A DNA stretch of 64,000 nt from Christensenellales bacterium (GTDB lineage Bacteria; Bacillota; Clostridia; Christensenellales; UBA3700), in contig JBJETR010000041.1 of assembly GCA_051883415.1 (NCBI GenBank), positions 9,642-73,641 of the forward strand, read 5' to 3'. The notes beneath the pieces were generated by a model that saw only the letters and a list, made by a program, of their open reading frames with translations, was not told the origin of the DNA and did no database searches. Made by a program: the position numbers and the translations under genes. Each line of letters begins with the position of its first letter. Within the stretch, counting starts at the first letter, position 1. Positions 25,415-63,792 of the stretch are shown in pieces.

Positions 25415-25436
25415 CTCAATACGTATCAACAAAAAC
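25415..25436 (-). repeat. 22-bp dispersed palindromic motif, copy 1 (reverse orientation)
   Basis: Reverse complement GTTTTTGTTGATACGTATTGAG. Confidence 0.7.
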
Positions 25437-25458
25437 GCAGTCTTTCGACTGCGTTTTT
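25431..25458. terminator. Bidirectional terminator
   Basis: AAAAACGCAGTC-TTTC-GACTGCGTTTTT. Confidence 0.85.
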
Positions 25459-25482
25459 GATTGCTAAATCAAAGCGTATTGA

Positions 25483-26984
25483 TTATTTGTAATATTGGTT
25501 AAATACGTAATACTTTTCGCTACCGTCGGTGGTAGTTACCTTATAAATCGTCTTATTTGAACCATCGGATGTCCAGTAATTATCAATTGCGTTGATACTT
25601 TGCACGTTATCTATCACTTGTCTCTCGAGTGCGTAGAAGTATACCTTTTTACCTACTTGGTAGTAATCACTTCTAAACGTTACGCTCTCGCCTGCTCCCA
25701 CAGTAATCTCTCGTTCCGAGCCCTTGGCAATATCGTATATATAATATCTGATTTTGTCAACGTCGTCCTTATCTTGCTTGGAATATAACAGTTTACCGTC
25801 AAAACTAATATCTACGTCTAAGACGTCTTCGTCAATTATGATATCTCCATTCAAAGTATAAGCTTTGCCATCAATCATAACCATGTCAAGAAAGACGAAC
25901 GCATTTACCCCCTTGGATATAGTAAAGATACATTCTTTGTCTTCAAATAGACTAACGTCCGTAGTATTGCTCAATAGAAGTTGAGGTTTGCCGCCTACTC
26001 CAATAGATATAGATGCCTCATTTGCACCCTTAAGCATCTTCTGGAGATCTATTTTGACGGTCAAATTGCCCACAACGTCAAAGCCGAAAGATTGCACGTA
26101 TGGTGCGGTAGTTTGCTTGTCTACAATATTGCACACTTTTAGTATTACACTATCATCGAACTCCTCTACTACGTCGGCTATATAATAATTAAACTTAATC
26201 TCTTTACTCTTGCCCGACTTGATATCATAGACGTACGTATTGAGATTGCATTTTGTTCCTTCTATATACAAATCGAATTTTCGTTGTCGTCATAGGTTGG
26301 AGTCAAATATTGGAAAATCTTCTTGTTGGCAATTGTAACTTCTTCCGTAGGTACAGCGCTATTTAACAAATCAAAATCGACTTTTGGGAACAATGAACCT
26401 ACGTATTCACCTTGTTGGGTATAATACTTATATCCGCCGCTCACTTCTTTTTCTTGATAATCACCGCATTCATACGTATCTCCATAGCTCACTCTTTCTT
26501 CAAAAGCTTTGCTTGAAGTTTTGATTTGTCCGTCAGGTGCAACGTAGTAAGTGGTATTGGACTCAGTTGCATAAAACTCCTTACCGTTGACGCTGCCCTC
26601 TACACCGGACACGACGTTGCCTTTAGCTCCCGTCAAGATATATTTGTCTTGTTCATTGATTTGATAGTACAATCCATCGTTTATCTTGATGAACTCCAAT
26701 GTAGAGGTATTAATACTTGTATTAGTTTCAAAATTGAACAAAGTATAATAAGTCTTACCTGTCGTTGATAGAGTATACCTAAATACAGCTAGCCCAAAAT
26801 CGTCTATGCCGCCTGTCATTATAGCCCCTTCCTCTACGTTGAGCCCTGTCAATTCTTGCAAAGAAAATGCCAGCTCTTTTTGTTCGCCGAAGAGCTTGTT
26901 GACGTCTTGATTGCTGCAACCTGCCAAACTTATCGTCAAAACTATGACTAAACAGATAAGTATAGCAACCGAAATCTTTTTCAT
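25483..26984 (-). pseudogene. Lipoprotein of about 500 aa split by a 1-bp frameshift near 26278-26281 (or a sequencing error)
   Basis: Signal peptide with lipobox LAGC in 26262-26984; adding one A to GAAAATTC joins it in frame to 25483-26271 (DDNEKFDLYIEGTK); no SD seen for the second ORF. Confidence 0.6.
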
Positions 26985-27117
26985 AATTCTCTCCTTTTTT
27001 GCGCTTTTGCGCTTTTTCTACATTATACTAGATAATTATTTTTATGTCAATATGTTTCAAAAAATAACAAAAAATTCGGACGCCTTGGCGTCCGTTTTCA
27101 ATACTCTAACTCATAAT

Positions 27118-29064
27118 TTACTCTTGTCCTATCATAGTTAGCAACTCTGCTTCGTCTATAATTTTGATACCTAATTTGATAGCTTTGTCCAGCTTTGAGC
27201 CTGCATCTTCGCCTGCAACAACCAAATTGACGGCTTTAGATACGCTGTCGGCAGTCTTTCCGCCATTCTCCTCTATCAACTGCTTGGCTTGCGAACGCTT
27301 GAGCGTAGGGAGCGAACCCGTAAGTACTACGACGTAGCCCGTCATTGCCCCGCTCCTTACTTCCTCCTCTTTGATTTTGACACCCAAAGAGTACAATTCT
27401 TCTATTGCTTTGACGTGGTCAGGGTTGGCGAAATATTCAATGACGCTCTTAGCCATTATCTCGCCAAAGTCCTCGATTGCAGTCAAATCTTCCATACAAG
27501 CCCTTTGAAGATTTTCCATACTGCCGAATTTTTCTGCCAACTGTTTAGAAGCCTTCTTGCCGATATTGGCTATGCCAAGTGCAAAAATCAACCTCGCAAG
27601 AGTGGTGTTTTTGCTGTCGTCAATAGCAGTGAGAATATTGTTGATTTTGGTTGCTTTAAAGCCCTCTATTCCTTCAAAGTCCTCAGCCTCCAATCTATAG
27701 ATATCTACAAAATTGCTCAGCACGCCCTCTTCCATCAGCGTCTCTATTGTCTTCTCGCTAAGCCCCTCGATATTCATCGCTTCTTTGCTGACGAAGTGCG
27801 TCAAAGCCGACACGACGGCGGGAACGCAATTTTTGTAATTGGTACATTTGACGAATGCGCCTTGCCACTCAACGGGACTGCCGCAAGCAGGACATACGGT
27901 AGGTTTGTCAATCTCTTTTGAGTTAGGATAATGCTCCGCCACACCCATTATCTCGGGAATGACGTCGTTGGACCTACGCACGAACACGCGACTACCTATT
28001 TTGATATCCTTGCGCAATATTTCGCTATAATTGTTGAGAGTCGCTCTCGACACGGTTACGCCCGCCAGCTCCACAGGCTCCAATATCGCAAGGGGATTGA
28101 GTTTGCCCGTCCTCGACACTTGCCATACCACGTCTTTGACGATAGTGGTCGCCTCTTGAGCGGGATATTTGAACGCCATAGCCCACCTAGGGAATTTTTC
28201 GGTGAAGCCTAGCCTCTCTCTCGTAGCCACGTCATCGACTTTGATTACTGCTCCGTCTATGAGGAAGTCAAGGCTGTCCCTGCTCTCGCCAATAGCGTCA
28301 ACGCCTGCGATAACGTCGTCAATATTGTCATATAACTCAAATTTTCCGCTCACTCTAAACTTGTTATCACGCAAAAACTTTATCATATCACTGCCACTCT
28401 CAAACGGCTTGTCGATAAAATTGACGTTGTACACGTTGACTTCGAGATTCCTCTCGGCAGTAACCTTGGGATCGAGATTTCGTATAGCTCCCGCCACGCC
28501 GTTGCGAGCGTTTTTTAGAGGTGTAACCCCCTCTTTGGCATTGTATTTTTCCAATTCGGATAGACGCATTATGCCCTCGCCTTGCACTTCCAATACGCCC
28601 TTATAATCAATCTTTAGAGGCACCGACTTGATGGTTTTGACTTGCGCAGTGACGTCCTCGCCTTCTACGCCGTTGCCTCGAGTTGCGCCCCTGACCAGCT
28701 CGCCGTTTTCGTAAGTGAGGTTGATAGTCAATCCGTCATATTTGTATTCCAAAGAACAAGTCGGCAACTTGCCGTCCGCCGTCTTGAGCTTTTCTAGCCA
28801 TGCTCTAAGCTCTTCTTTGCTCTGACACTTGTCAAGGCTGTACAACCTACCCAAATGACGTACACTCTCAAATTTACTCAGAGGCTGACCTCCGACTCTT
28901 ACGGTAGGAGAATCGGCAAGCACGATGCCACTCTCCTTTTCCATTGCCACTAGTTGGTCGTAGAGTCTATCGTACTCAACGTCGGCTATAGTCGGCTCGT
29001 CTAGCACGTAATATTGATAAGCATATCGGTTGAGCTTGTCAACCAAAGCTCTCATCTCGTCCAT
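27118..29064 (-). CDS. ligA: NAD-dependent DNA ligase
   Basis: EYKYDG, TRGNG, PRWAMAFK, zinc finger and BRCT domain. Confidence 0.97.
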   Translation of the reverse strand: MDEMRALVDKLNRYAYQYYVLDEPTIADVEYDRLYDQLVAMEKESGIVLADSPTVRVGGQPLSKFESVRHLGRLYSLDKCQSKEELRAWLEKLKTADGKLPTCSLEYKYDGLTINLTYENGELVRGATRGNGVEGEDVTAQVKTIKSVPLKIDYKGVLEVQGEGIMRLSELEKYNAKEGVTPLKNARNGVAGAIRNLDPKVTAERNLEVNVYNVNFIDKPFESGSDMIKFLRDNKFRVSGKFELYDNIDDVIAGVDAIGESRDSLDFLIDGAVIKVDDVATRERLGFTEKFPRWAMAFKYPAQEATTIVKDVVWQVSRTGKLNPLAILEPVELAGVTVSRATLNNYSEILRKDIKIGSRVFVRRSNDVIPEIMGVAEHYPNSKEIDKPTVCPACGSPVEWQGAFVKCTNYKNCVPAVVSALTHFVSKEAMNIEGLSEKTIETLMEEGVLSNFVDIYRLEAEDFEGIEGFKATKINNILTAIDDSKNTTLARLIFALGIANIGKKASKQLAEKFGSMENLQRACMEDLTAIEDFGEIMAKSVIEYFANPDHVKAIEELYSLGVKIKEEEVRSGAMTGYVVVLTGSLPTLKRSQAKQLIEENGGKTADSVSKAVNLVVAGEDAGSKLDKAIKLGIKIIDEAELLTMIGQE

Positions 29065-29082
29065 AATCTCTCCTTAATTTGC

Positions 29083-29104
29083 ATTTTTGTCGATACGTAT
29101 CGAC
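29083..29104 (+). repeat. 22-bp dispersed palindromic motif, copy 2
   Basis: ATTTTTGTCGATACGTATCGAC in the pcrA-ligA spacer; perfect 16-bp palindrome. Confidence 0.85.
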
Positions 29105-29106
29105 TT

Positions 29107-31290
29107 TTAGCCCTCTATAATCTCTATTGGTGCCAATCGCATGTTGAAAGTTTTTACACCTAGTCCCGCAAATTCTATCCTTGCATTTTCGCCAAGTATC
29201 TCCACTATTTTGCCCTCGCCGAACCTCGAATGTCTAACAATTTGTCCCTCTTTGAACTTGGACAACTCTCGTCCCTTCTCTACGCATGGGCGAGCCGTGG
29301 CAAAGGCAGGCGTAGGTTTGCTGATAGTAGTATAATCAATCTTGCTCTTAGGTGCTTCGTAATACTGACCGTAAGGCTTTTTGTCCTCACGTTCTTTTTC
29401 CAGACCGCCCTCTTTCAAAAATCTACTTGCTAAGCCGTACTCTCTATGTCCGTAACGAAAACGGCTAAATGCGTTGGTGAGATAGAGTCTTTCTTTGGCT
29501 CTGGTCACCGCAACGTACATAATACGTCTTTCTTCTTGCAAAGCTTCGTCGTCGGCAAGAGCAGTGGTTACGGGAAAGAGCCCGTCCTCTAGTCCTACAA
29601 CGAATACACACCTAAATTCCAAGCCCTTGACTCCATGCACCGTAGCCAAAGTAACGCTATTCTCGTCGTCGCTTCTATCGTTGTCCGTCAATAGAGAAAC
29701 AGACTGCAAAAAGTCCTCAAGCATAGGATTTTCGTTGTCACGACAATATTCTTTGACTGCCGTAACGAAATCGTCGATATTGTCAAGACGGTTGGCGTCC
29801 TCAGCCACCTTTTTGTCGTAAGCCGATTCAAAATCAATTATTTCCCTTGCTTGGTCAATAAAACCGCCTAGAGGCATATCTTTTACGCTCTCCAATCTTA
29901 TTATCACGTCGCTGAACTTGGCAATATTGTTGGCTGTCGCCGACGGAAGTCCCAAAGCATGCACCTTCTTGATAGCGTCGTACAACCTAAGTCCATTCTC
30001 CTGCGCCGCTTGCATTATCTTAGAAATCGCACCGTCACCTATTCCCCTCTTAGGCGTGTTGATAACCCTCAATATACTCTCACTGTCGCTAGGATTGGCA
30101 ACAAATTTGAGATAAGCCAAAAAGTCTTTGATTTCCTTTCTATCAAAGAACTTGTTACCACCCACTACCTTGTACGGATAGTTGTATAGAGCCAGCTTCT
30201 CTTCGAAAGAACGAGATATGGCGTTGGCACGATATAGTACGGCAAAGTCGCTGAAACTGTAGCCGTTGTAGCGCATGAGTGCAGTGATTTGCTCGATTAC
30301 GTAGTCGGCTTCGGTTTTTTCATCGCTCAAAGAACGGTAAATTACCCCCGTTCCCTTGCTTCCCTCGGTCCAAAGATTTTTTTCCACTCTGCCGCTGTTG
30401 TTGGCAATGATTTTGTTGGCAACCGCTAGGATATTGCCCGTAGAACGATAGTTTTGTTCCAATTTATACAGTCTACAACCTGCGAACTCCTGGTGGAACT
30501 TCTTGACGTTATGCACCTCTGCCCAACGCCAGCCGTATATACTTTGGTCGTCGTCACCCACGGCAAAAACGTTGCCGTACTTCATTGAGAGCATGCGAAC
30601 AAGCATATATTGAATGCGGTTGGTGTCTTGGAATTCGTCAACATGGATGTATTGGAATCTCTCTTGGTACTTATTGAGGATATCCGGACGAGAGGTAAAA
30701 AGCTTGACGGTCTTGAGTAGCAAATCGTCAAAATCGAGAGCGTTGTTGTCCACCAATGTCTGCTCGTATATCTTGTAAATCTCAGTTATCAACGAGCTAT
30801 TGTGCTCTATCTTAATCCTTTCGCCATAGGCTTCGGGGGCAAGAGCGTGGTTCTTGGCGTTGGAGATATGCCAACGCACCGTCTTATAAAAATCCTTCTC
30901 GGTGTCCATACCGATATCGCCGATAATACGCTTGACTATCTTGGTACAATCGGCGTCGTCATATATGGTAAAGTTGGGACTAAAGCCCTCGATATTCTCT
31001 ATCTCCGCACGCAAAATGCGAGCACAAAGCGCATGAAAAGTCGAGATAGTCACTTCGCTTCTGCCCGTCACTTGATATACTCTCTCCTTCATCTCGCCCG
31101 CCGCCTTGTTGGTAAAAGTGATGGCAAGGATGTGATGAGGAGCTACGCCCTTTTCTTCGATAAGATATGCTATACGATAGGTAAGCACACGGGTTTTTCC
31201 GCTACCTGCGCCTGCCAAAACCAACACGGCGCCTTCGGTGTCAAGGACGGGTTTTAGCTGTTCGGGATTGAGCAATTTGGTATAATCCAT
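29107..31290 (-). CDS. pcrA: UvrD/PcrA helicase (start adjusted to ATG 31290)
   Basis: AGAGSGKT, TFTNKAA, DEFQD, QNYRS, KGLEF and YVAVTRA motifs; SD GGAGG. Confidence 0.95.
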   Translation of the reverse strand: MDYTKLLNPEQLKPVLDTEGAVLVLAGAGSGKTRVLTYRIAYLIEEKGVAPHHILAITFTNKAAGEMKERVYQVTGRSEVTISTFHALCARILRAEIENIEGFSPNFTIYDDADCTKIVKRIIGDIGMDTEKDFYKTVRWHISNAKNHALAPEAYGERIKIEHNSSLITEIYKIYEQTLVDNNALDFDDLLLKTVKLFTSRPDILNKYQERFQYIHVDEFQDTNRIQYMLVRMLSMKYGNVFAVGDDDQSIYGWRWAEVHNVKKFHQEFAGCRLYKLEQNYRSTGNILAVANKIIANNSGRVEKNLWTEGSKGTGVIYRSLSDEKTEADYVIEQITALMRYNGYSFSDFAVLYRANAISRSFEEKLALYNYPYKVVGGNKFFDRKEIKDFLAYLKFVANPSDSESILRVINTPKRGIGDGAISKIMQAAQENGLRLYDAIKKVHALGLPSATANNIAKFSDVIIRLESVKDMPLGGFIDQAREIIDFESAYDKKVAEDANRLDNIDDFVTAVKEYCRDNENPMLEDFLQSVSLLTDNDRSDDENSVTLATVHGVKGLEFRCVFVVGLEDGLFPVTTALADDEALQEERRIMYVAVTRAKERLYLTNAFSRFRYGHREYGLASRFLKEGGLEKEREDKKPYGQYYEAPKSKIDYTTISKPTPAFATARPCVEKGRELSKFKEGQIVRHSRFGEGKIVEILGENARIEFAGLGVKTFNMRLAPIEIIEG

Positions 31291-31350
31291 ACTTCCTCCA
31301 AAGTCATGATTTATTATACCATATCGCCAAGTGATTATCAATCACTTATA

Positions 31351-32083: not shown

Positions 32084-32105
32084 ACCCGCAACTATCGTTG
32101 CGGGT
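32084..32105 (-). terminator. rpsU terminator hairpin
   Basis: ACCCGCAAC-TATC-GTTGCGGGT. Confidence 0.7.
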
Positions 32106-50496: not shown

Positions 50497-50510
50497 ATTC
50501 TCTCCTTATA

Positions 50511-51254
50511 TCAAAACAATATCGCTTGGTCCGTGACAAAAAATCCGACTATCATCACCACGACTACACACACCGCAAGCACCACCGATTGCAACGCAAC
50601 GTGAGTATGTGACGTAATAGCAATCTCTTGAGCGTCTTCGTCGCTATGAAGCATAATCCTCGCCGTGGCTACGCCGAACAACACAACTGTTAAGACGCTG
50701 GCAACTACCACAAAAGATAGATTAAAATACGTTACGATTATCGCAATTACGCTTTCTACCACACAACACGCCGTCACTGCTATCGCTCTATTTGAGTTAC
50801 CGTTAGAAGTCAGCATGATATAGCTGCCAATCTCAAAGCTCAATACCGCCACCGTAATTGTTGCAAATACTATGACCGCAATCAAATTGAATGACGTTAC
50901 GTTTTGTAGGTTTTGATCGGGTGCTAGCAGTTGTATATTGTAGGGGGTAAAAATCAACGTGACTGCTAGACACACCGACGCTACAAGACAAGCAATATTC
51001 ACCGTTTTGTGAGTGATTTTTTTACGTAGCAAAAACACTCCTAATGCTCCCACTGCCACGCCTACGGCAAGCAAAATCGGAACGAGCGTCGATATTGACA
51101 GTCGCTCCATGCCAAGCCTGCCAAAGGTAAATGCGGCGTTGATATTGTCGTATATATATCGACGCAACTGAGCGCAAATTATAAGTAATATCAAACTTGC
51201 AACAAAGGCTGCAACGTAACCTAGAAAGTCGAAAATCTTAGCTCTTTTATTCAT
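50511..51254 (-). CDS. Multi-pass membrane protein
   Basis: About 7 hydrophobic segments; translationally coupled to the GH18 gene. Confidence 0.65.
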   Translation of the reverse strand: MNKRAKIFDFLGYVAAFVASLILLIICAQLRRYIYDNINAAFTFGRLGMERLSISTLVPILLAVGVAVGALGVFLLRKKITHKTVNIACLVASVCLAVTLIFTPYNIQLLAPDQNLQNVTSFNLIAVIVFATITVAVLSFEIGSYIMLTSNGNSNRAIAVTACCVVESVIAIIVTYFNLSFVVVASVLTVVLFGVATARIMLHSDEDAQEIAITSHTHVALQSVVLAVCVVVVMIVGFFVTDQAILF

Positions 51255-52644: not shown

Positions 52645-52721
52645 AATTTTCTCCTTATTTTGCGGGCAAAGTCGTACTTTATCCCGTTGATTTCAAATAT
52701 CGTTTTAATCAATACTAGATG

Positions 52722-52743
52722 ATTTTTGCCGATACGTATCGAG
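52722..52743 (+). repeat. 22-bp dispersed palindromic motif, copy 3
   Basis: ATTTTTGCCGATACGTATCGAG abutting the antiporter stop codon. Confidence 0.85.
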
Positions 52744-54015
52744 TTATTTGCTCAATTTAGTCTTATATATCAATCGACCAAAATTCACCTTGTTACTCTC
52801 TCCGCCTATTTCGCCCGCCCATTCAAAGCCTTTCTTGGCGACAAAAACCGCTATAAGCTCGTTGATGACCGCCGCGGCGGCTATCGTTCCTTGAATAATC
52901 TTGGCACTATCGGGATCGGCAGGCATCAATACCGACACAGCTATGCCTGTAAATACCAACGATACGCCTGAATGTGTCAACAAAGTAAATCCCAGATACT
53001 TTCTTACGGCTGTCGGTGCTTTGGTAATCGTAGCTCCCAAACTAGCCCCGCCGTATTTACCTACCGCTCTGACAACAATATAAACCAAAGTGTACACACC
53101 TGCACCCGCTATCGAACGCCAATCTAAACCCGCCCCCAAATTGAAAATTACGACTACTATAGCCAAATTGAGTATAGGTTGGAATAATTTGATTATCTCC
53201 TCCAATCTCTCTTTGGAGACCACGTTGGCAATGGCTGCAAAAAATGCCATTCCCATCATCATAAAGTTGAGGATAGGAGCGGGCATTACGTAAACGTTAA
53301 GCAGATATCCTACTGCCACCGTTGCGACTATTCCTATAGCCGTCGTCAACAAAGTTACGACACCGTTCATCTTGCGACGAAGTATTAGCCCTACAACCAC
53401 TCCGACAATCGCACCGATAGCAAGTGGCAAAATTATTGCCAAAACTATGGCATAAGCGGGAAGCCCACCTCTGCTCACTCGCCCCGCAACCAAACTTATA
53501 CACGTAAAGAACACCACTACTCCGACGATATCGTCCAATGCTGCCATAGGCACTAAGGTATCGGTGACAGGTCCTTTGGTATTATATTCTTTGACTATCG
53601 ACAAGGCGGGAGCAGGTGCGGTAGCAAGTGCGATACTGCCGAATATAAAAGCCAAATACAAAGGCACTTGCATAAAATAAAATATTACGCAAAATACACA
53701 CGACACCAATGCAAACGTGCCCAATGACTGAACCAGCGTCGTCACAATCAATACCTTGCCCGACTTTTTGAGTTTGCTCCACACCAATTCTCCGCCAATC
53801 ATCAAACCCACGACGCATTCGAGCGTCTTTTCTAAGTTTTGATACCAATTAGCTTCGAGCACGGTATTGTCAACAATGCTCATGGCGTATGGTCCCAACA
53901 ACATACCGCCAATCAAAAAACCGAGGATAGCCGGCAATTTGATTTTGGTTACGGCTATTCCGATAAGGTAACTTGTGCCTGCGGCTACTGCTAAAGATAA
54001 TATTCCTTGTATCAT
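52744..54015 (-). CDS. Cation:proton antiporter
   Basis: ATAPA, ALDD and RAVGK motifs; about 12 TM. Confidence 0.85.
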   Translation of the reverse strand: MIQGILSLAVAAGTSYLIGIAVTKIKLPAILGFLIGGMLLGPYAMSIVDNTVLEANWYQNLEKTLECVVGLMIGGELVWSKLKKSGKVLIVTTLVQSLGTFALVSCVFCVIFYFMQVPLYLAFIFGSIALATAPAPALSIVKEYNTKGPVTDTLVPMAALDDIVGVVVFFTCISLVAGRVSRGGLPAYAIVLAIILPLAIGAIVGVVVGLILRRKMNGVVTLLTTAIGIVATVAVGYLLNVYVMPAPILNFMMMGMAFFAAIANVVSKERLEEIIKLFQPILNLAIVVVIFNLGAGLDWRSIAGAGVYTLVYIVVRAVGKYGGASLGATITKAPTAVRKYLGFTLLTHSGVSLVFTGIAVSVLMPADPDSAKIIQGTIAAAAVINELIAVFVAKKGFEWAGEIGGESNKVNFGRLIYKTKLSK

Positions 54016-54016
54016 T

Positions 54017-54622
54017 TTATTGTTTGTCGGCTATTATACCGTACGTCATATATTCGATAAATTTAGGCAAAATCTCCTCGTGCTTGGCAACTATAACTTC
54101 TATCGCTTCACCCGAAAAAAGCATATTGGCAAAATAGTCGTTGAACATTTCTTGAAGTGTGTGAAAATATCCTTCGGCATCTTGCTTGCTCACGCCCTCA
54201 CGCAAAGTTAGCCTTTCTATCATTCCAAAATATATTTTGTCGTTGAGTTCATCAAAATTCTTCCTTAAAACTTTGATAGGAAGCTCAAGCTTTGGCGGTG
54301 GCTGTATCACCGCTTCAAATATAATTCTACAAAGGTCGCTATGCTCTTGCAAAAAGCCTAATCTTGCCTCAAGATAACTCTTGACGTCACTATCAGCACC
54401 CTTTTGCTTGATATAGTCGTCAAACAAGTCAAACGCCCTTTCTACAACTTGCAAATACACGTCCTCTTTGCCATTGTAATTGTGATACAACAAGCCCTTA
54501 GGGATACCGCTGGCACAAATATTATTTAGTGTACCCTTTTTATAGCCGTTTTTGCCAAATTCTCGTATTGCGGCATTGATGATTCTTTCTTTCGACAATT
54601 GCGTTTTTTGTTGCTTTTGCAT
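54017..54622 (-). CDS. TetR-family regulator
   Basis: N-terminal HTH with GIPKGLLYHNYNGKE. Confidence 0.9.
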   Translation of the reverse strand: MQKQQKTQLSKERIINAAIREFGKNGYKKGTLNNICASGIPKGLLYHNYNGKEDVYLQVVERAFDLFDDYIKQKGADSDVKSYLEARLGFLQEHSDLCRIIFEAVIQPPPKLELPIKVLRKNFDELNDKIYFGMIERLTLREGVSKQDAEGYFHTLQEMFNDYFANMLFSGEAIEVIVAKHEEILPKFIEYMTYGIIADKQ

Positions 54623-54630
54623 ACATTACC

Positions 54631-54656
54631 TATTATAGACCGTTTAGTCTATAATA
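54631..54656. promoter_or_regulatory. Probable TetR autoregulatory operator
   Basis: TATTATAGAC-N6-GTCTATAATA overlapping the -10 of TTGACA-N17-TATTAT. Confidence 0.75.
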
Positions 54657-54773
54657 GTACACATAAAGTGTTTTGTCAATAGAGCAACGACAAATTGCAA
54701 CTAATGATTAGCAAATTTCAAAAGTTATCGCCCAACGATTTACATATTGCAATTATGGTGATAAAATCGAGTT

Positions 54774-55343
54774 ATGAGAAACAAAAATAACGAAGAAACG
54801 CTCAACAAAAAACCTAGTAAAATCAAAAGAATATTTGCAATTTTCTATTTTGCTACTACCATTGCCTCATTGTTGCTTTACACCGCAACGGCAATCAAAG
54901 ACGTGGTCAAAGAGGGTTGGACTCCAATCAATATCGCCATTGCGGCTTTTATCGGGCTGAGCTATATGATTTTGTTTGCTTGCATTGTGCTATCTAAAAA
55001 CATAGCGGGTGCAAAAACCACCCATGCCAAAGCAAAAAAATTGCTAAAGCTTGGCAAAAAGGTCATCAAAATAGTACACGCCGTACCTACCGTGATGATA
55101 CTCTTCGCAACTACCCCGGCTGACTTCCTTGATTTCGTATCCCGAGCATTTTCCGTACTAGCCTTGATAATGCACCTCATCAGCCTTATCAATACCGTCA
55201 ATATGATGATTACCAAACTAATCGTCAAAAAGGTAGCCAAAAAAGGAAAAGAAAAAATCAGCGCCAAAATCGCAAGTTTCAAAAATAACGCCGAAGAAGG
55301 CGAGCAAGAATCACTACCTCTTGCCGACAGTGACGAACAATAA
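54774..55343 (+). CDS. Hypothetical membrane protein (probably leaderless)
   Basis: 3-4 TM; TTTACA-N17-TAAAAT-N6-ATG. Confidence 0.65.
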   Translation: MRNKNNEETLNKKPSKIKRIFAIFYFATTIASLLLYTATAIKDVVKEGWTPINIAIAAFIGLSYMILFACIVLSKNIAGAKTTHAKAKKLLKLGKKVIKIVHAVPTVMILFATTPADFLDFVSRAFSVLALIMHLISLINTVNMMITKLIVKKVAKKGKEKISAKIASFKNNAEEGEQESLPLADSDEQ

Positions 55344-55359
55344 AATCATTGCAATGCAA

Positions 55360-55388
55360 CAAAAAGACGAGATATACTCGTCTTTTTG
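55360..55388. terminator. Bidirectional terminator
   Basis: AAAAAGACGAG-ATATA-CTCGTCTTTTT. Confidence 0.8.
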
Positions 55389-55454
55389 CTTGCCATCTTC
55401 GTTATGCGTAACTTAATTATCTTCTTGCGTAATTTGTTAATTGTTCTAAAATAA

Positions 55455-56585
55455 TTAATCAAAAATCAGCTTAGATATTATCGAATTCATTACTCCCATA
55501 TATTCTTCTTTGATTGACATCCGCTCTTGCGACAGGTTGAGATATTGTTGAACGGTTTGCAATTTTTGTCGATACGTATCGAGAAAATCAATATCAAAGT
55601 CGCTATTAAATCTATCAATATCCATGCCTTCGTCCATACGCAAGCCAAGCATAATTCGCTCGTCCATCATATCCTTTAGGCTCAATTTTTGTTCGAGTTT
55701 TTGAGCTAATTCTCCGTTGTCAATCTTGTCGTAGTATTCTTCAGAGTCACTTGGATTGTACAGTCTACGATTGCCTATCAAGCTATGTGCTCCAAGCCCT
55801 AGTCCAACGTATTGCTTACACTGCCAATATTTGAGATTGTGCTTACTTTCTTTGCCCTCACAACAAAAATTGCTCACTTCGTAGCGGTGAAAGCCTATAT
55901 CTTCTAATCTCGATTTGATATGCTCGTACATATCGCAAGTGGCGTCCTCGTCGGGTAAATCAAGCTGTCCTCGTTGCATAGAAGTGTACATTGCCGTTCC
56001 TTCTTCTAGCTTGAGCATATACGCCGACACGTGCCCTACGCCGTTATCTCTCACTATTTTCACAAACTCATCAATATCCTCAATCGTTTGCTTTGGCAAA
56101 CCCAGCATTGCGTCAACGCTACAATCCAGACCGCTCTCCACCACCCACTTGATAGCTTGCATTGCTTGCTCGGGCGTATGCCTTCTGCCTATTGCTCTGG
56201 CAACGTCGGGATTGAAGGTCTGTACTCCTATGCTCACCCTAGTTACGCCCATTCTCTTATATGCGATGATTTTTGCCTCGTCCACCGAACAAGGATTGAC
56301 TTCAACGGTAAATTCTCGGATATCACACTTGAGCGCCTTTCGTAGATTAAAGACTATATGCCCTAGCTGCTTTGCACTCAATACCGACGGAGTTCCTCCA
56401 CCGATATATATCGTGTCGACGACATAGTGATATTTGATTTGTCTAGCAAGTAGCTTGATTTCTTTGACTACCGCTTCCACGTATCTGTCTATTTGCTCTT
56501 GCTTGGCAATAGACGATACAAAGTCGCAATAATGGCACCTAGACAAGCAAAACGGGATATGAATATAAACGCCGATATTTTCCAT
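55455..56585 (-). CDS. hemW: Radical SAM heme chaperone HemW
   Basis: YIHIPFCLSRCHYCDF, GGGTPS, YEVSN and HNLKYW motifs. Confidence 0.93.
   Translation of the reverse strand: MENIGVYIHIPFCLSRCHYCDFVSSIAKQEQIDRYVEAVVKEIKLLARQIKYHYVVDTIYIGGGTPSVLSAKQLGHIVFNLRKALKCDIREFTVEVNPCSVDEAKIIAYKRMGVTRVSIGVQTFNPDVARAIGRRHTPEQAMQAIKWVVESGLDCSVDAMLGLPKQTIEDIDEFVKIVRDNGVGHVSAYMLKLEEGTAMYTSMQRGQLDLPDEDATCDMYEHIKSRLEDIGFHRYEVSNFCCEGKESKHNLKYWQCKQYVGLGLGAHSLIGNRRLYNPSDSEEYYDKIDNGELAQKLEQKLSLKDMMDERIMLGLRMDEGMDIDRFNSDFDIDFLDTYRQKLQTVQQYLNLSQERMSIKEEYMGVMNSIISKLIFD
55562..55583 (+). repeat. 22-bp dispersed palindromic motif, copy 4 (inside hemW)
   Basis: ATTTTTGTCGATACGTATCGAG; encodes LDTYRQK. Confidence 0.85.
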
Positions 56586-58387
56586 TATTTGTCAAATTTG
56601 AGAATGCTCATAAAGGCTTCGCTAGGCAGCTGCACGCTACCCACCTGTCTCATTCTCTTTTTGCCTTCTTTTTGTTTTTCCAACAATTTCTTTTTACGCG
56701 TTATGTCACCGCCGTAGCACTTGGCAAGCACGTCCTTTCGCATTGCTTTGACGGTTTCTCTTGCAATGACCTTGCCTCCTATAGATGCTTGAATAGGTAT
56801 CTCGAACATCTGACGTGGGATAACTTCTTTGAGCTTTTCGGCAATGGCTCTGCCCCTTGCGTATGCCTTGTCCTTATGCACGATGAGCGAAAGTGCGTCG
56901 CACACCTCGCCGTTGAGCATGATATCTAGCTTGACAAGGTCGCTCTTTTTGTACCCCACAATCTCGTAGTCAAGCGAAGCGTAACCCTTGGTACGCGATT
57001 TGAGAGAATCGAAAAAGTCGTAGACTATCTCATTGAGCGGGATAGAATACTCTATCCTAACACGAGTAGCCTCGAGATATGTCAGGTCTACAAACTCTCC
57101 TCGCTTGTCTTGGCACAATTCCATAATAGTGCCCACGTACTCGGGCGGAGTAAATAGGAAGGCTTTGACCACCGGCTCTTGCATCTCGGCTATTTCACTT
57201 GCCGGTGGCAGGTTGCTCGGATTGGATATAAGTTCGATATCTCCGTTGGTCTTGACAACTTGATAGGATACGCTCGGCGCAGTCGTAACGAGGTCGAGGT
57301 CAAACTCTCTCTCCAACCTCTCTTCGATAATTTCCATGTGGAGCAAGCCCAAAAATCCACATCTAAAGCCAAAGCCTAGCGCCGTTGATACCTCGGGCTC
57401 GTACACCAAAGAAGCGTCGTTGAGCTTAAGCTTTTCAAGAGCGTCCTTGAGGTCGTTGTACTTAGCTCCGTCGGCAGGATAGATACCGCTATACACCATT
57501 GGCGCAACCTCCTTGTAGCCTGCGAGAGGCTCGGTCACGCCACCCTCGGCAAGGGTAATGGTATCGCCGACTTTGGTATCCGACACGTTTTTGATACTAG
57601 CACATAGATATCCTACGTCACCAGCCGAAAGACTGTCTTGCGGTTGCATCTTGGGCACGAATACACCCACTTCCGTCACGTCAAAGACTTTGCCCGTAGA
57701 CATCATTTTGATTTTGTCGCCCGCCTTGACTTCGCCGTCGAACACTCTTATAAATGATATTGCACCCTTATAACTGTCGTAATACGAGTCGAATATCAAC
57801 GCCTTGAGAGGTGCGTCCATATTGCCGTTTGGCGGTGGCAACAAGGTGATGACTTGCTCTAGCACCTTCTCTATGCCTATGCCTTCTTTAGCCGACACTA
57901 GAGGTGCGTCGGAAGCGTCAAGCCCTATGACGTCCTCAATCTCCATTTTTACCTCGTCGGGGCGAGCCGACGGAAGGTCGATTTTGTTGATGACGGGTAT
58001 AATCTCGAGGTCGTTGTCCAAAGCGAGATATACGTTGGTCAAAGTTTGCGCTTCTATGCCCTGCGAAGCGTCCACGATAAGTATAGCCCCCTCGCACGCC
58101 TTGAGCGAGCGGGAAACCTCGTAGGTAAAATCGACGTGCCCCGGCGTGTCGATGAGGTTGAGCTCGTACTCTTCTCCGTCGTAGACGTAGTTCATTTTGA
58201 CGGGGGTAAGTTTGATAGTGATACCTCTCTCCCTCTCTATATCCATACTGTCAAGCAGCTGCTCTTTGGCATCTCTCTTGGCAACGGTGCTCGTCACGTC
58301 CATGATTCTATCGGCAAGCGTACTCTTGCCGTGGTCGATATGGGCTACGATACAAAAATTTCTTATCTTCGATTGGTCTTTGGGCAT
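56585..58387 (-). CDS. lepA: Elongation factor 4
   Basis: [23 protein letters not shown] and [10 protein letters not shown] motifs. Confidence 0.98.
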
Positions 58388-58479
58388 ATTGCAACCTTTT
58401 GTCAGTTTTTAATTATTATATAAAAATATATGGATTTTAGCAATAGAATTTTGTATAATATAGCAAAAGAGGTATTAGT

Positions 58480-59088
58480 ATGAAGATAGAAAGACTTATC
58501 GACAATCTTAGTTCCAAAGGCTTTATCGCCCACTATTGCGAGGACGAAAAGCAAGCAAACGACCTCGTACTCGACTTGATTGAGCAAGGTCAAAGCGTAG
58601 GCATAGGCGGTAGTATGACAGTCAAACAATTGGGGATAGACATATTGTTGCAAAACAAAGGCGTGGAAGTACTCTCACACGCGCTAGTCAGCGACGACAA
58701 AAAGCCTAATCTCTACGAATACGCCAGGCACGCGGATTGGTATATGTCCTCCGCCAATGCTATCACACAGAAGGGCGATATAGTCAACATCGACGGCACT
58801 GCCAATAGAGTTTCGACGTTGATTTTCGGTGTGCCAAATATTATCTATCTCGTTGGCAAAAACAAGATAGTAGACAATATAGACCAAGCCATAGAACGCA
58901 TAAAAACCGTTACGTGTCCACAAAATGCCGAAAGATTGGATAGAAAAACCCCTTGTCGTTACACCGGCAAATGCGGGGATTGTAGCGGAATAGATTGCAT
59001 GTGCAACGTCACCACGATCGTGCACCACCCTACAAAACTGCAAAAGCAAGTGCACGTTATCATCATTGACAAGGAGCTGGGTTATTGA
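58480..59088 (+). CDS. LUD-domain (lactate utilization-like) protein
   Basis: GGSMT, NIDGTANRV and TPC..TGKCxDC motifs. Confidence 0.8.
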   Translation: MKIERLIDNLSSKGFIAHYCEDEKQANDLVLDLIEQGQSVGIGGSMTVKQLGIDILLQNKGVEVLSHALVSDDKKPNLYEYARHADWYMSSANAITQKGDIVNIDGTANRVSTLIFGVPNIIYLVGKNKIVDNIDQAIERIKTVTCPQNAERLDRKTPCRYTGKCGDCSGIDCMCNVTTIVHHPTKLQKQVHVIIIDKELGY

Positions 59089-59831
59089 TGAAAGATACTA
59101 GTTGGCTTTTGGGCGTGCCTATCGCTCACAGAGGACTGCACGACAATAAGACTTTGCCCGAAAATAGTATGGGCGCCTTTGAGAACGCCGTATCTCACGG
59201 CTACGGAATCGAGTTCGACGTCTATCTCACCCTTGATAACAAATTGATTATTCACCACGATATGACCTTGCAGCGTTCGTGTGGCAAAAAGATTAAAGCC
59301 TACAAAATCAATTCCGACAGACTGCAAGACTACAAGTTGATGAATACCCAATACTCTATTCCGCTATTGTCCGACTTACTAAATTTGGTACAAGGCAAAG
59401 TTCCCCTTATTTTGGAAATCAAAGCCACCAACAGAGTCAAATCCACTTGCTCAGCCGTGTACGAAGCTATCAAGGACTACCCCGGCAATATTTGCATAGA
59501 GTCTTTTGACAATCGCATTGTCGATTGGTGGCACAACAATCACCCCGAATACGTGTTGGGACAGCTGTATAGTACAATCAACTTCTATCGTGCAATTCAA
59601 CGCAGACTCAAGCAATATCGTAAAGTCGACTTTTTGGCTGTGGGAGTCAAAAACTTAAAAGAAGACTACTTCCGCTCCGTCAAAGCCGAATGCCCCGAAA
59701 AGTTGATCATCAACTGGACGCTACGCACCACAGAGCAATTGCAAGACGCTTTAGCATACGCCGACAACTATATTTTTGAGAGCAATATTAAATCTGACGA
59801 GTATATAACGCCCCCTTCCCTCACACACTAA
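59085..59831 (+). CDS. Glycerophosphodiester phosphodiesterase
   Basis: AHRG, PENS, EFDV, HD and EIK motifs. Confidence 0.9.
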   Translation: MMKDTSWLLGVPIAHRGLHDNKTLPENSMGAFENAVSHGYGIEFDVYLTLDNKLIIHHDMTLQRSCGKKIKAYKINSDRLQDYKLMNTQYSIPLLSDLLNLVQGKVPLILEIKATNRVKSTCSAVYEAIKDYPGNICIESFDNRIVDWWHNNHPEYVLGQLYSTINFYRAIQRRLKQYRKVDFLAVGVKNLKEDYFRSVKAECPEKLIINWTLRTTEQLQDALAYADNYIFESNIKSDEYITPPSLTH

Positions 59832-59847
59832 ATGCGGGAGGTGGATT

Positions 59848-59982
59848 ATGAAAATATCGACTGTAATAGGTCTTGGCACAGGCATGATATTGGGCTATAT
59901 CGGTGGCAACGTAATGTCGGGATCTTTTAAGAGAAGAAGCAAAAAGATGCTTAGAGATAAGATTGTTGAGCTTCTCGATTGA
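59848..59982 (+). CDS. 44-aa single-TM peptide (not in ORF track)
   Basis: MKISTVIGLGTGMILGYIGGNVMSGSFKRRSKKMLRDKIVELLD; SD GGAGGTG. Confidence 0.7.
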   Translation: MKISTVIGLGTGMILGYIGGNVMSGSFKRRSKKMLRDKIVELLD

Positions 59983-60219
59983 CGTATTGCATAGATTAGA
60001 GCATTATAAGTTGCCCTAATACTGCCAACCAAAAAATGCACCCTACGGGGTGTATTTTGTTTACATTTCCAATGGGAGATTACTCTTCAAGACCTAAGCC
60101 TTTGACTCTACATTATAGCTACTCATAATAACGCATCAAGGAATCTATAACTTGTCAAAAGAATAAAAAATGCACCCAACAATGCTAAGCTTGCTAGGTG
60201 CAGTGGTCATTATCGTCTT

Positions 60220-62196: not shown

Positions 62197-62202
62197 AATA
62201 TC

Positions 62203-62287
62203 TCCTACTTGTTTACTAGGAATAGTGTACAATTATATTGTCGCATTGTCAAACGATTTTATACAATTCCTATAAATTTGGTAGGAA
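62203..62287. promoter_or_regulatory. Two TCCTA-N9-TAGGA operators flanking the iscR promoter
   Basis: Sites at 62203-62221 and 62267-62287; TTGACA-N17-TACACT between them. Confidence 0.7.
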
Positions 62288-62458
62288 ATCAATAATATGT
62301 GATTTTTGATTACAATCTTTTCAATAAATAGATTTGTATAACAAATAATATTTTGTAAAAAAATTGACACTTACAATCTATCGTGATAAAATTTTTGTAT
62401 AAAGGTAATGCTAAATTGCTATACCCCCAAGACCGAAAGATAAAAGAAGGACGTTGGT

Positions 62459-63031: not shown

Positions 63032-63050
63032 CGCTCACCAAAATAACACA

Positions 63051-63077
63051 AAAAGACCGCCAAAACAGCGGTCTTTT
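63051..63077. terminator. Bidirectional terminator
   Basis: AAAAGACCGC-N7-GCGGTCTTTT. Confidence 0.8.
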
Positions 63078-63104
63078 GCATAATAAGTCTTAGTCAATAT
63101 TACG

Positions 63105-63521
63105 TCAATCCCAATAACTTAATTTGTTGATATGCGCGGGATTTGCTTTATTCTCCTCTTCGTTATCCTCAATAATTCCGTCGTTACAAGTAATGCTCAC
63201 GTCCTTACACTTTATCCAGTTAGTATAACTTTCTTTGTAACTGCATTCCACCGGCGCATTGTGATAATAGTAACCATACCAATCGTGTTTGATGGTGATA
63301 TCTTCCCTAAAACCCTTCTTTATCTTTTTCCAATCGGCAACGCTACCTTCGTAAAAAACATGCACGCTTGTCTCTTTTGCGTCTTCTAAAACCGCCCATT
63401 GCAATTCTACCACCGAAGAAGGAATATACAGTTCCACCTCCGAGCAATTTTCTGCACTTAGTTCTCCGCACTTGACAACGTATTGTCCGCTATCTAACTT
63501 TATTATCTTTTTATCTACCAT
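63105..63521 (-). CDS. Hypothetical protein with a BspA-LRR cap-like motif
   Basis: YIPSSV...VFYEGSVADWKKIKKG...ITCNDG. Confidence 0.6.
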   Translation of the reverse strand: MVDKKIIKLDSGQYVVKCGELSAENCSEVELYIPSSVVELQWAVLEDAKETSVHVFYEGSVADWKKIKKGFREDITIKHDWYGYYYHNAPVECSYKESYTNWIKCKDVSITCNDGIIEDNEEENKANPAHINKLSYWD

Positions 63522-63770
63522 ACTCCACCTTTCCATTTGTTACGTGATTGTCGGTAATTGCATAATCATTGACTTATTATTGGGATTTGTATAACTACAA
63601 TATACCACTTTTTTTGTTTGACTTGCAATATTTTATCCAAAAATCCAAAAACATTGGGGCTCAATTTTGGCAAGTGACTTTTATGAGCAAAGTGGTCGGC
63701 ATTTTTGCCGACCACTGTTGTAACTTCTATTCTATTAGTATTTTTACCTAAATATAGTGACTTGTTTTTT

Positions 63771-63792
63771 ATTTTTGTCGACACGTATCGGG
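63771..63792 (+). repeat. 22-bp dispersed palindromic motif, copy 5
   Basis: ATTTTTGTCGACACGTATCGGG abutting the glyA stop codon. Confidence 0.8.

What the first reader, a model, noticed from the sequence alone, without database searches (positions are those of the whole stretch)
25415..63792. Dispersed 22-bp palindrome-plus-A-tract motif in five copies: candidate chromosome-wide protein-binding signal
Seen: consensus ATTTTTGTCGATACGTATCGAG at 29083, 52722, 55562 and 63771, and reversed at 25415. It is a 14-16-bp palindrome centred on ACGT with a one-sided T5/A5 tail. Four copies start 0-5 nt after a stop codon (pcrA, antiporter, glyA, XRE) and one lies inside hemW coding sequence. The A-tract is always 3' relative to the host gene, so it is not that gene's terminator U-tract. 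Differences within the 14-bp core are all transitions. The genes are functionally unrelated, and two copies (inside hemW; between convergent genes) are not at promoters, which argues against an ordinary regulon operator. Known: parS (TGTTTCACGTGAAACA), Noc NBS, RacA ram, RefZ RBM and matS are dispersed palindromes, but none matches this sequence. Inference: a site for chromosome organisation, segregation or nucleoid occlusion, a polar site, or a DNA-uptake-like signal that I do not recognise.
Basis: partly seen in the sequence, partly recalled or inferred. Interest (0 to 1): 0.85.

Follow-up and report, generated by a model that had tools for sequence, protein, structure and literature searches.

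The report
Genus-wide conserved 26-bp palindromic signal
The five copies belong to a family of about 70 to 150 short DNA signals, found only in one genus of uncultured gut Clostridia and kept almost unchanged wherever they lie, and whatever reads them is still unknown.

Summary
All 5 copies lie at the stated coordinates.

**The unit.** It is larger than described: a 16-bp perfect palindrome, GTCGATACGTATCGAC, with an A5 or T5 tract on both sides, 26 bp in all. It can be read as two inverted polar half-units, A4-5 plus STCGATAC.

**Abundance.**
- The 1.53-Mb genome holds about 71 full sites.
- It holds 88 exact half-units, against 0 for the reversed control.
- All 6 congeners hold 43-88 half-units; 35 genomes of 10 sister genera hold 0-8.

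**Conservation.**
- 54 of 56 mappable sites sit at the same place in a species about 12% diverged.
- Third codon positions inside in-gene units are 95.5% identical, against 74% in the flanks. This holds in all frames and on both strands.

This points to a double-stranded DNA signal, most likely a protein-binding site. Full A5...T5 palindromes at gene ends also look like bidirectional terminators.

**Candidate readers tested and not found:** REP-associated transposase, LacI family, ParB/Noc paralogue, HU paralogue, NusG paralogue, CRP/FNR family, competence pilus. There is no replication-strand skew.

The reader protein and the function remain unknown.

The parts
25410..25435 (+). Copy 1. In the sense of the upstream HTH_3 gene it reads A6, CTCAATACGTATCAAC, A5. 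It has one canonical half-unit and one variant half.
   Evidence: the site at C41:35056. Kept at the same place in G004.
25437..25459 (.). Conventional A-tract / GC hairpin / T-tract terminator directly after copy 1 (GCAGTC...GACTGC, then GTTTTTG).
   Evidence: Sequence. The fold of the downstream 60 nt gives -19.2 kcal/mol. It is not listed by the consensus scan.
29084..29109 (-). Copy 2, a perfect 16-bp palindrome between the UvrD/PcrA stop (2 nt away) and the LigA start (24 nt away). On the sense (-) strand it reads CTAAAA, core, AAAAAT, then the ribosome-binding site.
   Evidence: Present in 4 of 4 genus genomes shown and in 0 of 21 genomes of 10 other genera, where the stop is followed directly by the ribosome-binding site.
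52723..52748 (-). Copy 3, directly after the TAA stop of the Na+/H+ exchanger gene and 83 nt before the GH18 gene start.
   Evidence: Present in G001; the spacer in G005 is shorter and lacks it. In my scripts this gene was mislabelled 'glyA-like'. Pfam identifies it as Na_H_Exchanger.
55563..55588 (-). Copy 4, inside the hemW-like gene (codons CTC GAT ACG TAT CGA CAA AAA, encoding LDTYRQK). It is the only site of the genome with T-tract first and A-tract last, so it has no canonical half-unit.
   Evidence: Kept in G001, G004 (with one synonymous change in the centre), G005 and G006. Absent in G003 and in 16 outgroup genomes, with no indel.
63772..63797 (-). Copy 5, directly after the TAA stop of glyA (SHMT). 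The gene runs off the window end.
   Evidence: Kept in G004 and G006.

Best explanation
The five copies are members of a genus-specific family of double-stranded DNA signals.

The functional unit is 26 bp: two inverted half-units, each A4-5 followed by STCGATAC, abutting at a central CG. This places two A/T tracts 21 bp apart, about two helical turns.

Most likely mechanism (inferred): a sequence-specific protein, probably a dimer, reads the 8-bp half-site by base contacts. It needs the narrow-groove, bendable A/T tracts on both flanks. One canonical half-unit suffices, and the second half may be degenerate.

Shown:
- Sites are kept by purifying selection wherever they lie: after stop codons, between cistrons, before ribosome-binding sites, and inside genes in any frame and on either strand.

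Inferred:
- Transcription shapes where and how sites are tolerated. Full A5...T5 palindromes sit mainly between convergent genes, where they also look like bidirectional terminators.
- Inside operons the downstream tract is A5, so the sense transcript has a hairpin without a U-tract and is not terminated.

What the protein-site system does for the cell is not shown. Possibilities include nucleoid organisation, insulation against read-through or antisense transcription, or marking of own DNA.
For: 1. Abundance and phylogenetic limits.
- About 71 full sites.
- 88 exact AAAA-STCGATAC units, against 0 for the reversed control and 7 with a TTTT flank.
- 43-88 units in 6 of 6 genus genomes, against 0-8 in 35 genomes of 10 other genera.

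2. Selection.
- 54 of 56 mappable G000 sites and 53 of 55 mappable G004 sites are at the orthologous place.
- The 26-bp unit is 95-96% identical, against 60-78% for adjacent positions.
- Several sites persist in the most distant congeners.

3. DNA level rather than RNA or peptide level.
- 22 in-gene units are 98.9% identical in the 12-mer, 96.6% in the next 8 nt and 94.5% in the distal tract, against 87% in the flanks.
- Third codon positions are identical at 171 of 179 (95.5%), against 870 of 1176 (74%) in the flanks.
- All three frames are used, with 14 units sense and 7 antisense to the gene.
- The 7 antisense units are 172 of 175 identical (my sum).

4. Half-units. 35 of 88 units lack the palindromic partner but keep an A/T tract at the same spacing. 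This fits one strong and one weak half-site.

5. At least one canonical half is needed. Site classes are canonical/canonical 27, canonical/variant 34, variant/variant 1.

6. Sequence, not pairing, is conserved. The outer pair shows all four G/C combinations. The core hairpin is only -5.2 kcal/mol, against a median of -12.7 for the genome's other predicted terminators.

7. Origin by substitution. The hemW copy arose by substitutions without an indel.
Against: - No reader protein was found. LacI HTH: 0. ParB_N: 1 only. HU: at most 1 per genome across the family. NusG: 1 everywhere. Crp-type HTH: 0 in G000, G001 and G006. The neighbouring HTH_3 protein has no close orthologue in G003 and G006.
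- Sites are about 13-fold enriched in non-coding DNA (58 of 88 units in about 13% of the genome).
- Next to solid gene ends the A-tract is on the gene side in 33 cases, against 3 weak exceptions. A purely symmetric DNA site does not predict this. My explanation, avoidance of sense termination plus a preference for two canonical halves, is inference.
- In canonical/variant sites the tolerated changes are almost all purine transitions on one strand. This looks strand-specific.
- The conservation figures carry an ascertainment bias, because orthologues were located by searching for the motif.
- Gene calls come from a crude caller of my own. Some sites labelled 'CDS' are really just upstream of a start codon.
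Confidence: 0.4

Rival explanations
1. RNA-level element. This would be a REP-like stem-loop in 3' UTRs and intercistronic spacers that acts as a bidirectional or antisense-facing intrinsic terminator, or as an mRNA end-protecting or processing hairpin, perhaps read by an RNA-binding protein.
For: - Location: 20 convergent, 23 tandem and only 4 divergent intergenic contexts, against a background of 124/704/128.
- Stops lie 0-44 nt upstream, with A5 always on the gene side: 18 A..A, 15 A..T, and 3 weak T..T.
- The class that cannot terminate in either direction is nearly absent (1 of 71).
- Full palindromes with flanks fold at -11.3 kcal/mol.
- 16 of 34 canonical/variant sites are followed within 60 nt by a fold of -14 kcal/mol or stronger. 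By eye these are mostly conventional terminators, which places the core inside the 3' UTR.
- Precedent: uptake-sequence pairs serving as terminators (PMC1852404; passages read).
Against: - In-gene units antisense to the mRNA are as conserved as sense ones, including at synonymous sites.
- 35 half-units cannot form the hairpin.
- The core hairpin is weak (-5.2 kcal/mol), and variants reach -2 to 0.
- There is no compensatory pattern at the outer pairs.
- The consensus scan flags 0 of the 5 window copies as terminator-like.
- Some full A5...T5 sites lie 18-25 nt before a start codon with no room for a promoter, so they cannot be efficient terminators.
Confidence: 0.25
2. Relic of a miniature mobile element (REP/REPIN- or MITE-like) that spread in the ancestor of the genus and is now immobile, with sequence maintenance by some unknown homogenising process.
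For: - Dispersed, genus-limited and mostly extragenic.
- At pcrA-ligA the element is a net gain of about 20-28 nt in a spacer that in 21 outgroup genomes holds only the ribosome-binding site.
- Recurrent sub-types exist: centre ACAT with a flank starting with A; the ...ATAC-AGGTCG... form; and the GTTGAT...ATTGA form.
- The genome carries another abundant stacked intergenic repeat family.
Against: - No Y1/RAYT transposase in 0 of 6 genus genomes.
- No turnover between species about 12% apart (54 of 56 and 53 of 55).
- The hemW copy arose by substitutions, not insertion.
- Neutral relics would have decayed like their flanks.
- No longer parent element was seen. The 26-bp unit has no extended flanking similarity.
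Confidence: 0.15
3. ParB/Noc-, SlmA- or MatP-like chromosome segregation or occlusion site. This is a special case of the best explanation, with a defined cell-cycle role.
For: - 16-bp palindrome centred on ACGT.
- Tens to about 150 sites scattered over all large contigs.
- Conserved inside genes too.
Against: - Only one ParB_N protein, with its own parS-like pair near it.
- Strong non-coding enrichment is not typical of such sites (recalled, not tested).
- Spacing is Poisson-like (CV 1.02), with no obvious desert in a 12-contig assembly. Ori and ter could not be placed.
Confidence: 0.07
4. DNA uptake signal analogous to DUS/USS.
For: - A polar 12-13-nt unit on both strands, with inverted pairs in terminator-like configuration and genus-level 'dialects' (centre ACAT in G002).
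- In-gene origin by substitution.
- ComEC and DprA are present.
- 0 exact hits in 2.9 million viral contigs (about 1 expected by chance by my estimate, so this is weak).
Against: - T2SSF (ComGB/PilC) was found in 0 of 6 genus genomes.
- Density is about 1 per 9-17 kb, against roughly 1 per kb for known uptake signals (PMC1852404: generally 1,000 or more copies; passages read).
- ComEC is shared with 9 of 11 genera of the family, most of which lack the motif.
Confidence: 0.04

Closest known systems
REP / BIME (REPIN) elements of Proteobacteria
   Same: Short palindromes dispersed mostly just after stop codons and between cistrons. They are species- or genus-specific, vertically inherited at orthologous places, and can affect termination or mRNA ends (abstracts listed; otherwise recalled).
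   Different: - No RAYT in 0 of 6 genomes.
- A perfect 16-bp palindrome with obligatory A/T tracts, and no GTAG/CGTC tag (tag as given in the abstract of PMC3733652).
- About 30 conserved units inside genes, and half-units without a hairpin.
- No turnover seen.
DNA uptake sequences (DUS of Neisseriaceae, USS of Pasteurellaceae)
   Same: A polar core with A/T-rich flanks, inverted pairs in the A-tail/T-tail configuration forming terminator-like hairpins, lineage dialects, and occurrence inside genes (PMC1852404, passages read; abstracts).
   Different: About ten-fold lower density. No pilus platform protein in the genus. Gram-positive lineage. The half-site is tied to a fixed partner tract 21 bp away.
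Chromosomal protein-binding palindromes (parS, Noc NBS, SlmA SBS, matS)
   Same: 12-16-bp palindromes in tens of copies per chromosome, conserved irrespective of coding context, and read by a dimeric DNA-binding protein (recalled).
   Different: No paralogous ParB. Strong bias to gene 3' ends. Flanking A/T tracts are part of the conserved unit.
LacI-family operator in Actinobacteria
   Same: The identical 16-mer occurs in pairs about 1.1 kb apart, or about 35 bp apart, next to LacI-family regulator and sugar-binding-protein genes in Streptomyces, Nonomuraea and others.
   Different: No A/T tracts there, and 2-3 copies per locus. This genome has no LacI-type HTH at all. The resemblance is coincidental or convergent.

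Membership tests
REP/REPIN-RAYT system | Single-copy Y1 (RAYT) transposase in the genome | tested here: not met
   PF01797: 0 of 1 and 0 of 5 congeners. Controls hit in 6 of 14 genomes. Genomes are 89-97% complete.
REP/REPIN-RAYT system | Short palindromes, extragenic, many copies | tested here: inconclusive
   52 of 71 full sites are intergenic, but 30 of 88 units are inside genes. Copy number of about 70-150 is low for REPs (recalled).
REP/REPIN-RAYT system | Unpaired GTAG or CGTC tag at one end | tested here: not met
   The flanks are A5 or T5. The tag definition is taken from the abstract of PMC3733652.
DUS/USS uptake signals | Type IV pilus or competence pseudopilus machinery | tested here: not met
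   T2SSF PF00482: 0 of 6 genus genomes. ComEC and DprA are present.
DUS/USS uptake signals | Hundreds to thousands of copies, about 1 per kb | tested here: not met
   88 exact units in 1.53 Mb. About 154 loci in 1.43 Mb at up to 1 mismatch.
DUS/USS uptake signals | Preferential uptake of motif-bearing DNA | not testable with these tools
   Needs a transformation or uptake assay.
ParB-parS / Noc-NBS | A dedicated ParB-family protein | tested here: not met
   One ParB_N gene (C12:19853-20128).
ParB-parS / Noc-NBS | Position relative to ori or ter | tested here: inconclusive
   Draft assemblies only. Spacing is Poisson-like, CV 1.02, largest gap 62 kb.
Intrinsic terminators | Stable hairpin followed by a U-tract downstream of a gene, in the sense direction | tested here: inconclusive
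   Met in form by the 27 A..T sites (-11.3 kcal/mol with flanks). Not met by the 34 A..A/T..T sites in the sense direction. 0 of 5 window copies are flagged.
Polar replichore motifs (Chi, KOPS) | Orientation skew with the replication direction | tested here: not met
   Unpaired units in G004: 28 with and 28 against the sign of local GC skew (my tally).
LacI-family operator | A LacI-type HTH regulator in the genome | tested here: not met
   PF00356: 0 matches, 19 candidates scored.
CRP/FNR-family site | A Crp-type HTH regulator present throughout the genus | tested here: not met
   PF13545: 0 in G000, G001 and G006; 2 in G003. The resemblance of the core to FNR-type boxes is recalled, not tested.

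The most novel reading that the evidence does not exclude
A previously unknown kind of chromosome-wide 'own DNA' signal in a Gram-positive anaerobe. It would be a 13-nt polar word (an A-tract plus an 8-mer), usually paired into a 26-bp palindrome, created by both insertion and point substitution, even at the cost of amino-acid changes. It would be held by selection at about 100-150 places and read by a genus-specific factor of no known family, for example to insulate transcription units or to mark self DNA against a nuclease or defence system.
Probability: 0.15. Interest if true: 0.85.

Novelty: new variant of a known kind. Interest (0 to 1): 0.6.

Why it matters
Dispersed short signals such as REP, uptake sequences, Chi, parS and NBS each revealed a piece of chromosome biology. 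Almost all were found in cultured Proteobacteria or Bacilli.

Here an uncultured gut Clostridia genus carries a signal with unusually clean evidence of selection. Synonymous sites are frozen in any frame and on either strand, and positions are conserved across the whole genus. Yet it fails the membership test of every family checked.

Finding its reader would add either a new nucleoid or transcription-insulating protein or a new self-marking system. The 26-mer is also a ready bait for DNA-affinity or DAP-seq experiments, and a genus-diagnostic marker for metagenomes.

Tried and rejected
**Tested ideas that failed**
- Chance: rejected.
- Longer repeat or IS end: the alignment of the five copies with 80-nt flanks shows no similarity beyond the unit. 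A search for isolated half-sites bracketing a gene found a half-unit class instead.
- REP/RAYT: no Y1 transposase.
- LacI operator: the same 16-mer flanks LacI genes in Actinobacteria, but this genome has no LacI HTH.
- ParB/Noc paralogue: none.
- IHF/HU paralogue: none.
- NusG paralogue reading the non-template strand: none.
- CRP/FNR: absent from 3 of 4 genus genomes sampled.
- The adjacent 70-aa HTH_3 protein as reader: it is 99-100% identical in G001, G004 and G005 but has no close orthologue in G003 and G006, which carry 76-77 units.
- Replication polarity: none.
- Read-through or recoding tag: the stop-to-core distances fall in all three phases (my reading).
- Peptide motif: all frames and both strands are used.

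**Blanks**
- Known RNA family: none.
- Literature string search for CGATACGTATCG: 0 papers.
- Viral contigs: 0 hits.
- RNA evidence: no RNA holder was listed for window 50000-59999.

**Unfinished**
- Phyletic profiling for a genus-specific reader. The comparison was not made.
- Supplementary files were not consulted.

**An idea abandoned along the way**
- G-U wobble as proof of a sense-strand RNA hairpin. The changes tolerated on one strand include mid-stem A-C mismatches on that same strand. The pattern is strand-specific but does not preserve pairing there.

**An error of mine**
- In some searches I labelled the gene at 52744-54015 'glyA-like'. Pfam shows a Na+/H+ exchanger. glyA is the gene at 63793 onward.

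Full report
**1. The observation**

The 22-mer occurs 5 times in the window at the stated coordinates, with 0-3 mismatches. Shuffles give 0.01 expected, and 0 of 100 reach 5. The 14-bp core alone at 3 mismatches is not significant in the window (5 against 2.85), so the case rests on near-exactness and on the genome.

Aligning the copies with 80-nt flanks shows nothing conserved beyond the unit.

- a UvrD/PcrA helicase stop 2 nt from the copy;
- a Na+/H+ exchanger stop 0 nt from the copy;
- the SHMT (glyA) stop 0 nt from the copy;
- the stop of a 70-aa HTH_3 protein 5 nt from the copy;
- one copy inside the radical-SAM/HemN_C gene.

**2. What the unit really is**

The window lies in a 1.53-Mb, 72-contig, 44% G+C assembly.

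Genome-wide the perfect 16-bp palindrome GTCGATACGTATCGAC occurs 9/12/28/44 times at 0/1/2/3 mismatches. Three Markov simulations give 0/0/0-3/8-14.

Every good copy has a 5-nt A- or T-tract on both sides. Of 71 credible sites (out of 93 hits):
- 27 are A..T;
- 19 are A..A;
- 15 are T..T;
- 1 is T..A, the hemW copy;
- 9 have one unclear flank.

Strand-neutrally, a half-site is either 'canonical' (A5 then STCGATAC, 94 halves) or 'variant' (T5 then the 8-mer, 38 halves). Variant halves are enriched for GACAC (8 of 38 against 4 of 94) and GATAT (7 of 38 against 1 of 94).

Sites with two variant halves are depleted: 1 seen against about 5 expected under independence (my arithmetic).

The polar 12-mer AAAA-STCGATAC occurs 88 times exactly. 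The reversed control gives 0, and the TTTT-flanked version gives 7. Of the 88:
- 53 are followed by the palindromic partner (up to 2 mismatches);
- 35 are followed by another 8-mer, often RTRTCG-like or the recurrent AGGTCG form, and then an A/T tract at the same spacing.

**3. Phylogenetic limits**

- The exact 14-mer is present 5-20 times in 7 of 7 genomes of the genus, G000 included. It occurs once in 1 of 12 genomes of other genera of the family, and in 0 of 12 genomes of other families.
- The 12-mer unit occurs 43-88 times in 6 of 6 genus genomes. It occurs 0-8 times in 35 genomes of 10 other genera, where the reversed control gives 0-4.
- All three distant congeners have 42-77 sites at up to 3 mismatches. 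G002 has a dialect in which the centre reads ACAT and the 3' flank starts with A.
- In the scan of one genome per species, the loci that carry the 16-mer with the same A/T flanks have record titles naming uncultured Clostridia or Christensenellales MAGs.
- The other hits are single chance-level copies, apart from paired copies in Actinobacteria. Those lie next to LacI-family regulator and sugar-binding-protein genes.

**4. Where the sites lie**

With a crude gene caller of my own (1293 genes, 87% coding), 52 of 71 full sites are intergenic. Of the 88 units, 58 are intergenic.

Intergenic contexts are 20 convergent, 23 tandem and 4 divergent, plus 5 at contig ends. The background of intergenic regions is 124, 704 and 128.

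Using ORFs directly, where a well-scoring ORF ends within 44 nt of the core, the flank on the gene side is A5. The counts are 18 A..A, 15 A..T, 2 with an unclear second flank, and only 3 T..T. All three T..T cases have weak ORF scores of 8-20. The stop is often a TAA fused to the A-tract.

About 14 sites lie 18-83 nt upstream of a start codon with a ribosome-binding site, in the same orientation. These include full A5...T5 sites with no room for a promoter.

Neighbouring genes are unrelated in function: DNA ligase, DapA, a hexapeptide transferase, a GNAT, an ammonium transporter-PII fusion, and a SpoVT/AbrB-type protein.

In 16 of 34 A..A/T..T sites, the 60 nt after the core fold at -14 kcal/mol or stronger. 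By eye these are conventional A-tract/hairpin/T-tract terminators, as at window 25437-25459.

**5. Conservation**

I fetched the whole of congener G004 (1.43 Mb). It has 66 sites with the same class spectrum: A..T 25, T..T 16, A..A 14, T..A 1.

- Of 71 G000 sites, 56 could be mapped by both flanks, and 54 keep the motif at the same place and in the same class.
- In reverse, 53 of 55 mappable G004 sites are kept. Both 'absent' cases are diverged copies.
- The 5+16+5 unit is 95-96% identical, against 60-78% for adjacent positions. The comparison is ungapped and carries an ascertainment caveat.
- Sites at C36:57075, C36:60132 and C36:49897 persist in G005, G003 and/or G002, at 65-80% DNA identity.

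The decisive result is inside genes, for 22 mappable in-gene units:
- the 12-mer is 98.9% identical;
- the following 8 nt are 96.6% identical;
- the distal tract is 94.5% identical;
- the flanking coding sequence is 87% identical.

Third codon positions within the unit are identical at 171 of 179, against 870 of 1176 in the flanks. All three frames occur, with 14 units sense and 7 antisense to the gene, and the encoded peptides differ. The seven antisense units are 172 of 175 identical (my sum). This is selection on nucleotides, not on peptide, and not on the mRNA strand alone.

**6. Origin**

- At the pcrA-ligA junction the element is present in G000, G001, G003 and G006 (and in G004). It is absent in 21 genomes of 10 other genera, where the stop is followed at once by the ribosome-binding site. 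This is a net gain of about 20-28 nt at the base of the genus.
- The hemW copy has no indel against G003 or 16 outgroup genomes. It arose by substitutions that changed several residues. One outgroup (G012) has a 13-of-16 look-alike at the same codons.
- Both insertion-like and substitution-like origins therefore occur.

**7. Tests of known kinds**

| Kind tested | Result |
|---|---|
| RAYT (Y1 transposase) | 0 of 6 genus genomes |
| LacI HTH | 0 |
| ParB_N | 1 gene, with two parS-like sites about 9 kb away |
| HU family | at most 1 per genome in 26 genomes |
| NusG | 1 in each of 26 genomes |
| Crp-type HTH | 0 in G000, G001 and G006 |
| ComEC | in G000, in 3 of 3 congeners sampled and in 9 of 11 genera |
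| DprA | present |
| T2SSF (ComGB/PilC) | 0 of 6 genus genomes |
| Orientation against GC skew in G004 | 28 with, 28 against (my tally) |
| Spacing | mean 8.8 kb, CV 1.02, about 154 loci |
| Rfam | nothing at gathering threshold in the window and one further locus; nothing at E up to 10 around copy 2 |
| Terminator consensus scan | 0 of 5 window copies flagged |

Hairpin energies:
- core alone: -5.2 kcal/mol;
- core with T-tract flanks: -6.4;
- full A6...T6 form: -11.3;
- median of the other predicted terminators: -12.7.

In 7 of the 358 gene ends with a predicted terminator, the best prediction is the motif.

**8. Reading**

The signal is real, ancient within the genus, and under strong purifying selection as DNA sequence. 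Constraint at synonymous sites on either strand, and conserved half-units that cannot fold, argue against a purely RNA-level or hairpin-level function. They favour recognition of duplex DNA by a protein.

The inferred mode of recognition is base read-out of the 8-bp half-site, together with a requirement for A/T tracts two helical turns apart. One strong half and one weak half suffice.

The bias to gene 3' ends and the 'A5 on the gene side' rule can be explained by interference with transcription:
- A palindrome followed by T5 in the sense direction looks like a terminator. It is tolerated, or exploited, at the ends of transcription units, where the fully canonical A5...T5 form is found.
- Inside operons only the A5...A5 form keeps one canonical half without creating a sense terminator.

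This part is inference. The strand-specific pattern of tolerated purine transitions is not explained by it.

The RNA/terminator rival keeps a substantial share. A mobile-relic origin is compatible with either function.

I found no reader protein.

**9. Verdict**

It fails the membership tests of all families checked, so I file it as a new variant of the known kind 'dispersed conserved palindromic genome signals', with an unknown reader.

Noticed in passing
G000 contigs, e.g. C40:29400-30400, C40:39700-41000, C12:62350-63200, C57:7200-8000; one word at window about 39600 (C41:49241): A second, more abundant family of stacked short intergenic repeats. Words such as GTGGCAATCTCA occur 74 times, CGCAATGACATA 62 times and TTGCTAACGCAA 35 times. 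Blocks of 200-240 bp are 85-98% alike. Clusters often lie within a few hundred bases of a palindrome site. No Rfam match in C40:20001-40000.
   Followed up: partly
L004:4878-6034, L040:5897-5945, and similar loci L010, L013, L018, L054: In Streptomyces, Nonomuraea and other Actinobacteria the identical 16-mer, or a one-base variant, occurs in pairs about 1.1 kb or about 35 bp apart. The pairs bracket or precede a LacI-family regulator gene next to a sugar ABC-transporter binding protein. This is probably that regulator's operator.
   Followed up: partly
window 25197-25409 (+): The 70-aa HTH_3 (Cro/CI-type) protein is 100% identical in G004 and G005 and 99% in G001, although these genomes are 10-25% diverged in DNA. 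It has no close orthologue in G003 and G006. This suggests a recently exchanged or mobile gene.
   Followed up: partly
L292 (G012, another genus), hemW codons aligned to window 55568-55583: An outgroup hemW carries a 13-of-16 look-alike of the palindrome (peptide FVDKYRG) at the very codons where the genus has the motif. The F-[LV]-D-x-Y-R context seems pre-adapted to it.
   Followed up: no
They are presumably the real partition sites.
   Followed up: no
window 63798-63809: A degenerate partial second copy (CTCAATACGTCG) lies 5 nt beyond copy 5, inside the last codons of glyA. The motif TTATC(G/T) recurs just after several other copies.
   Followed up: no
L307:2925-2960 (G008, sister genus): The single exact copy in a sister genus has the same build (A6, then CTCGATACGTATCGA, then AAAC) in a 550-bp intergenic region, with a half-like word 50 nt further on. 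The word may predate its expansion in the genus.
   Followed up: no
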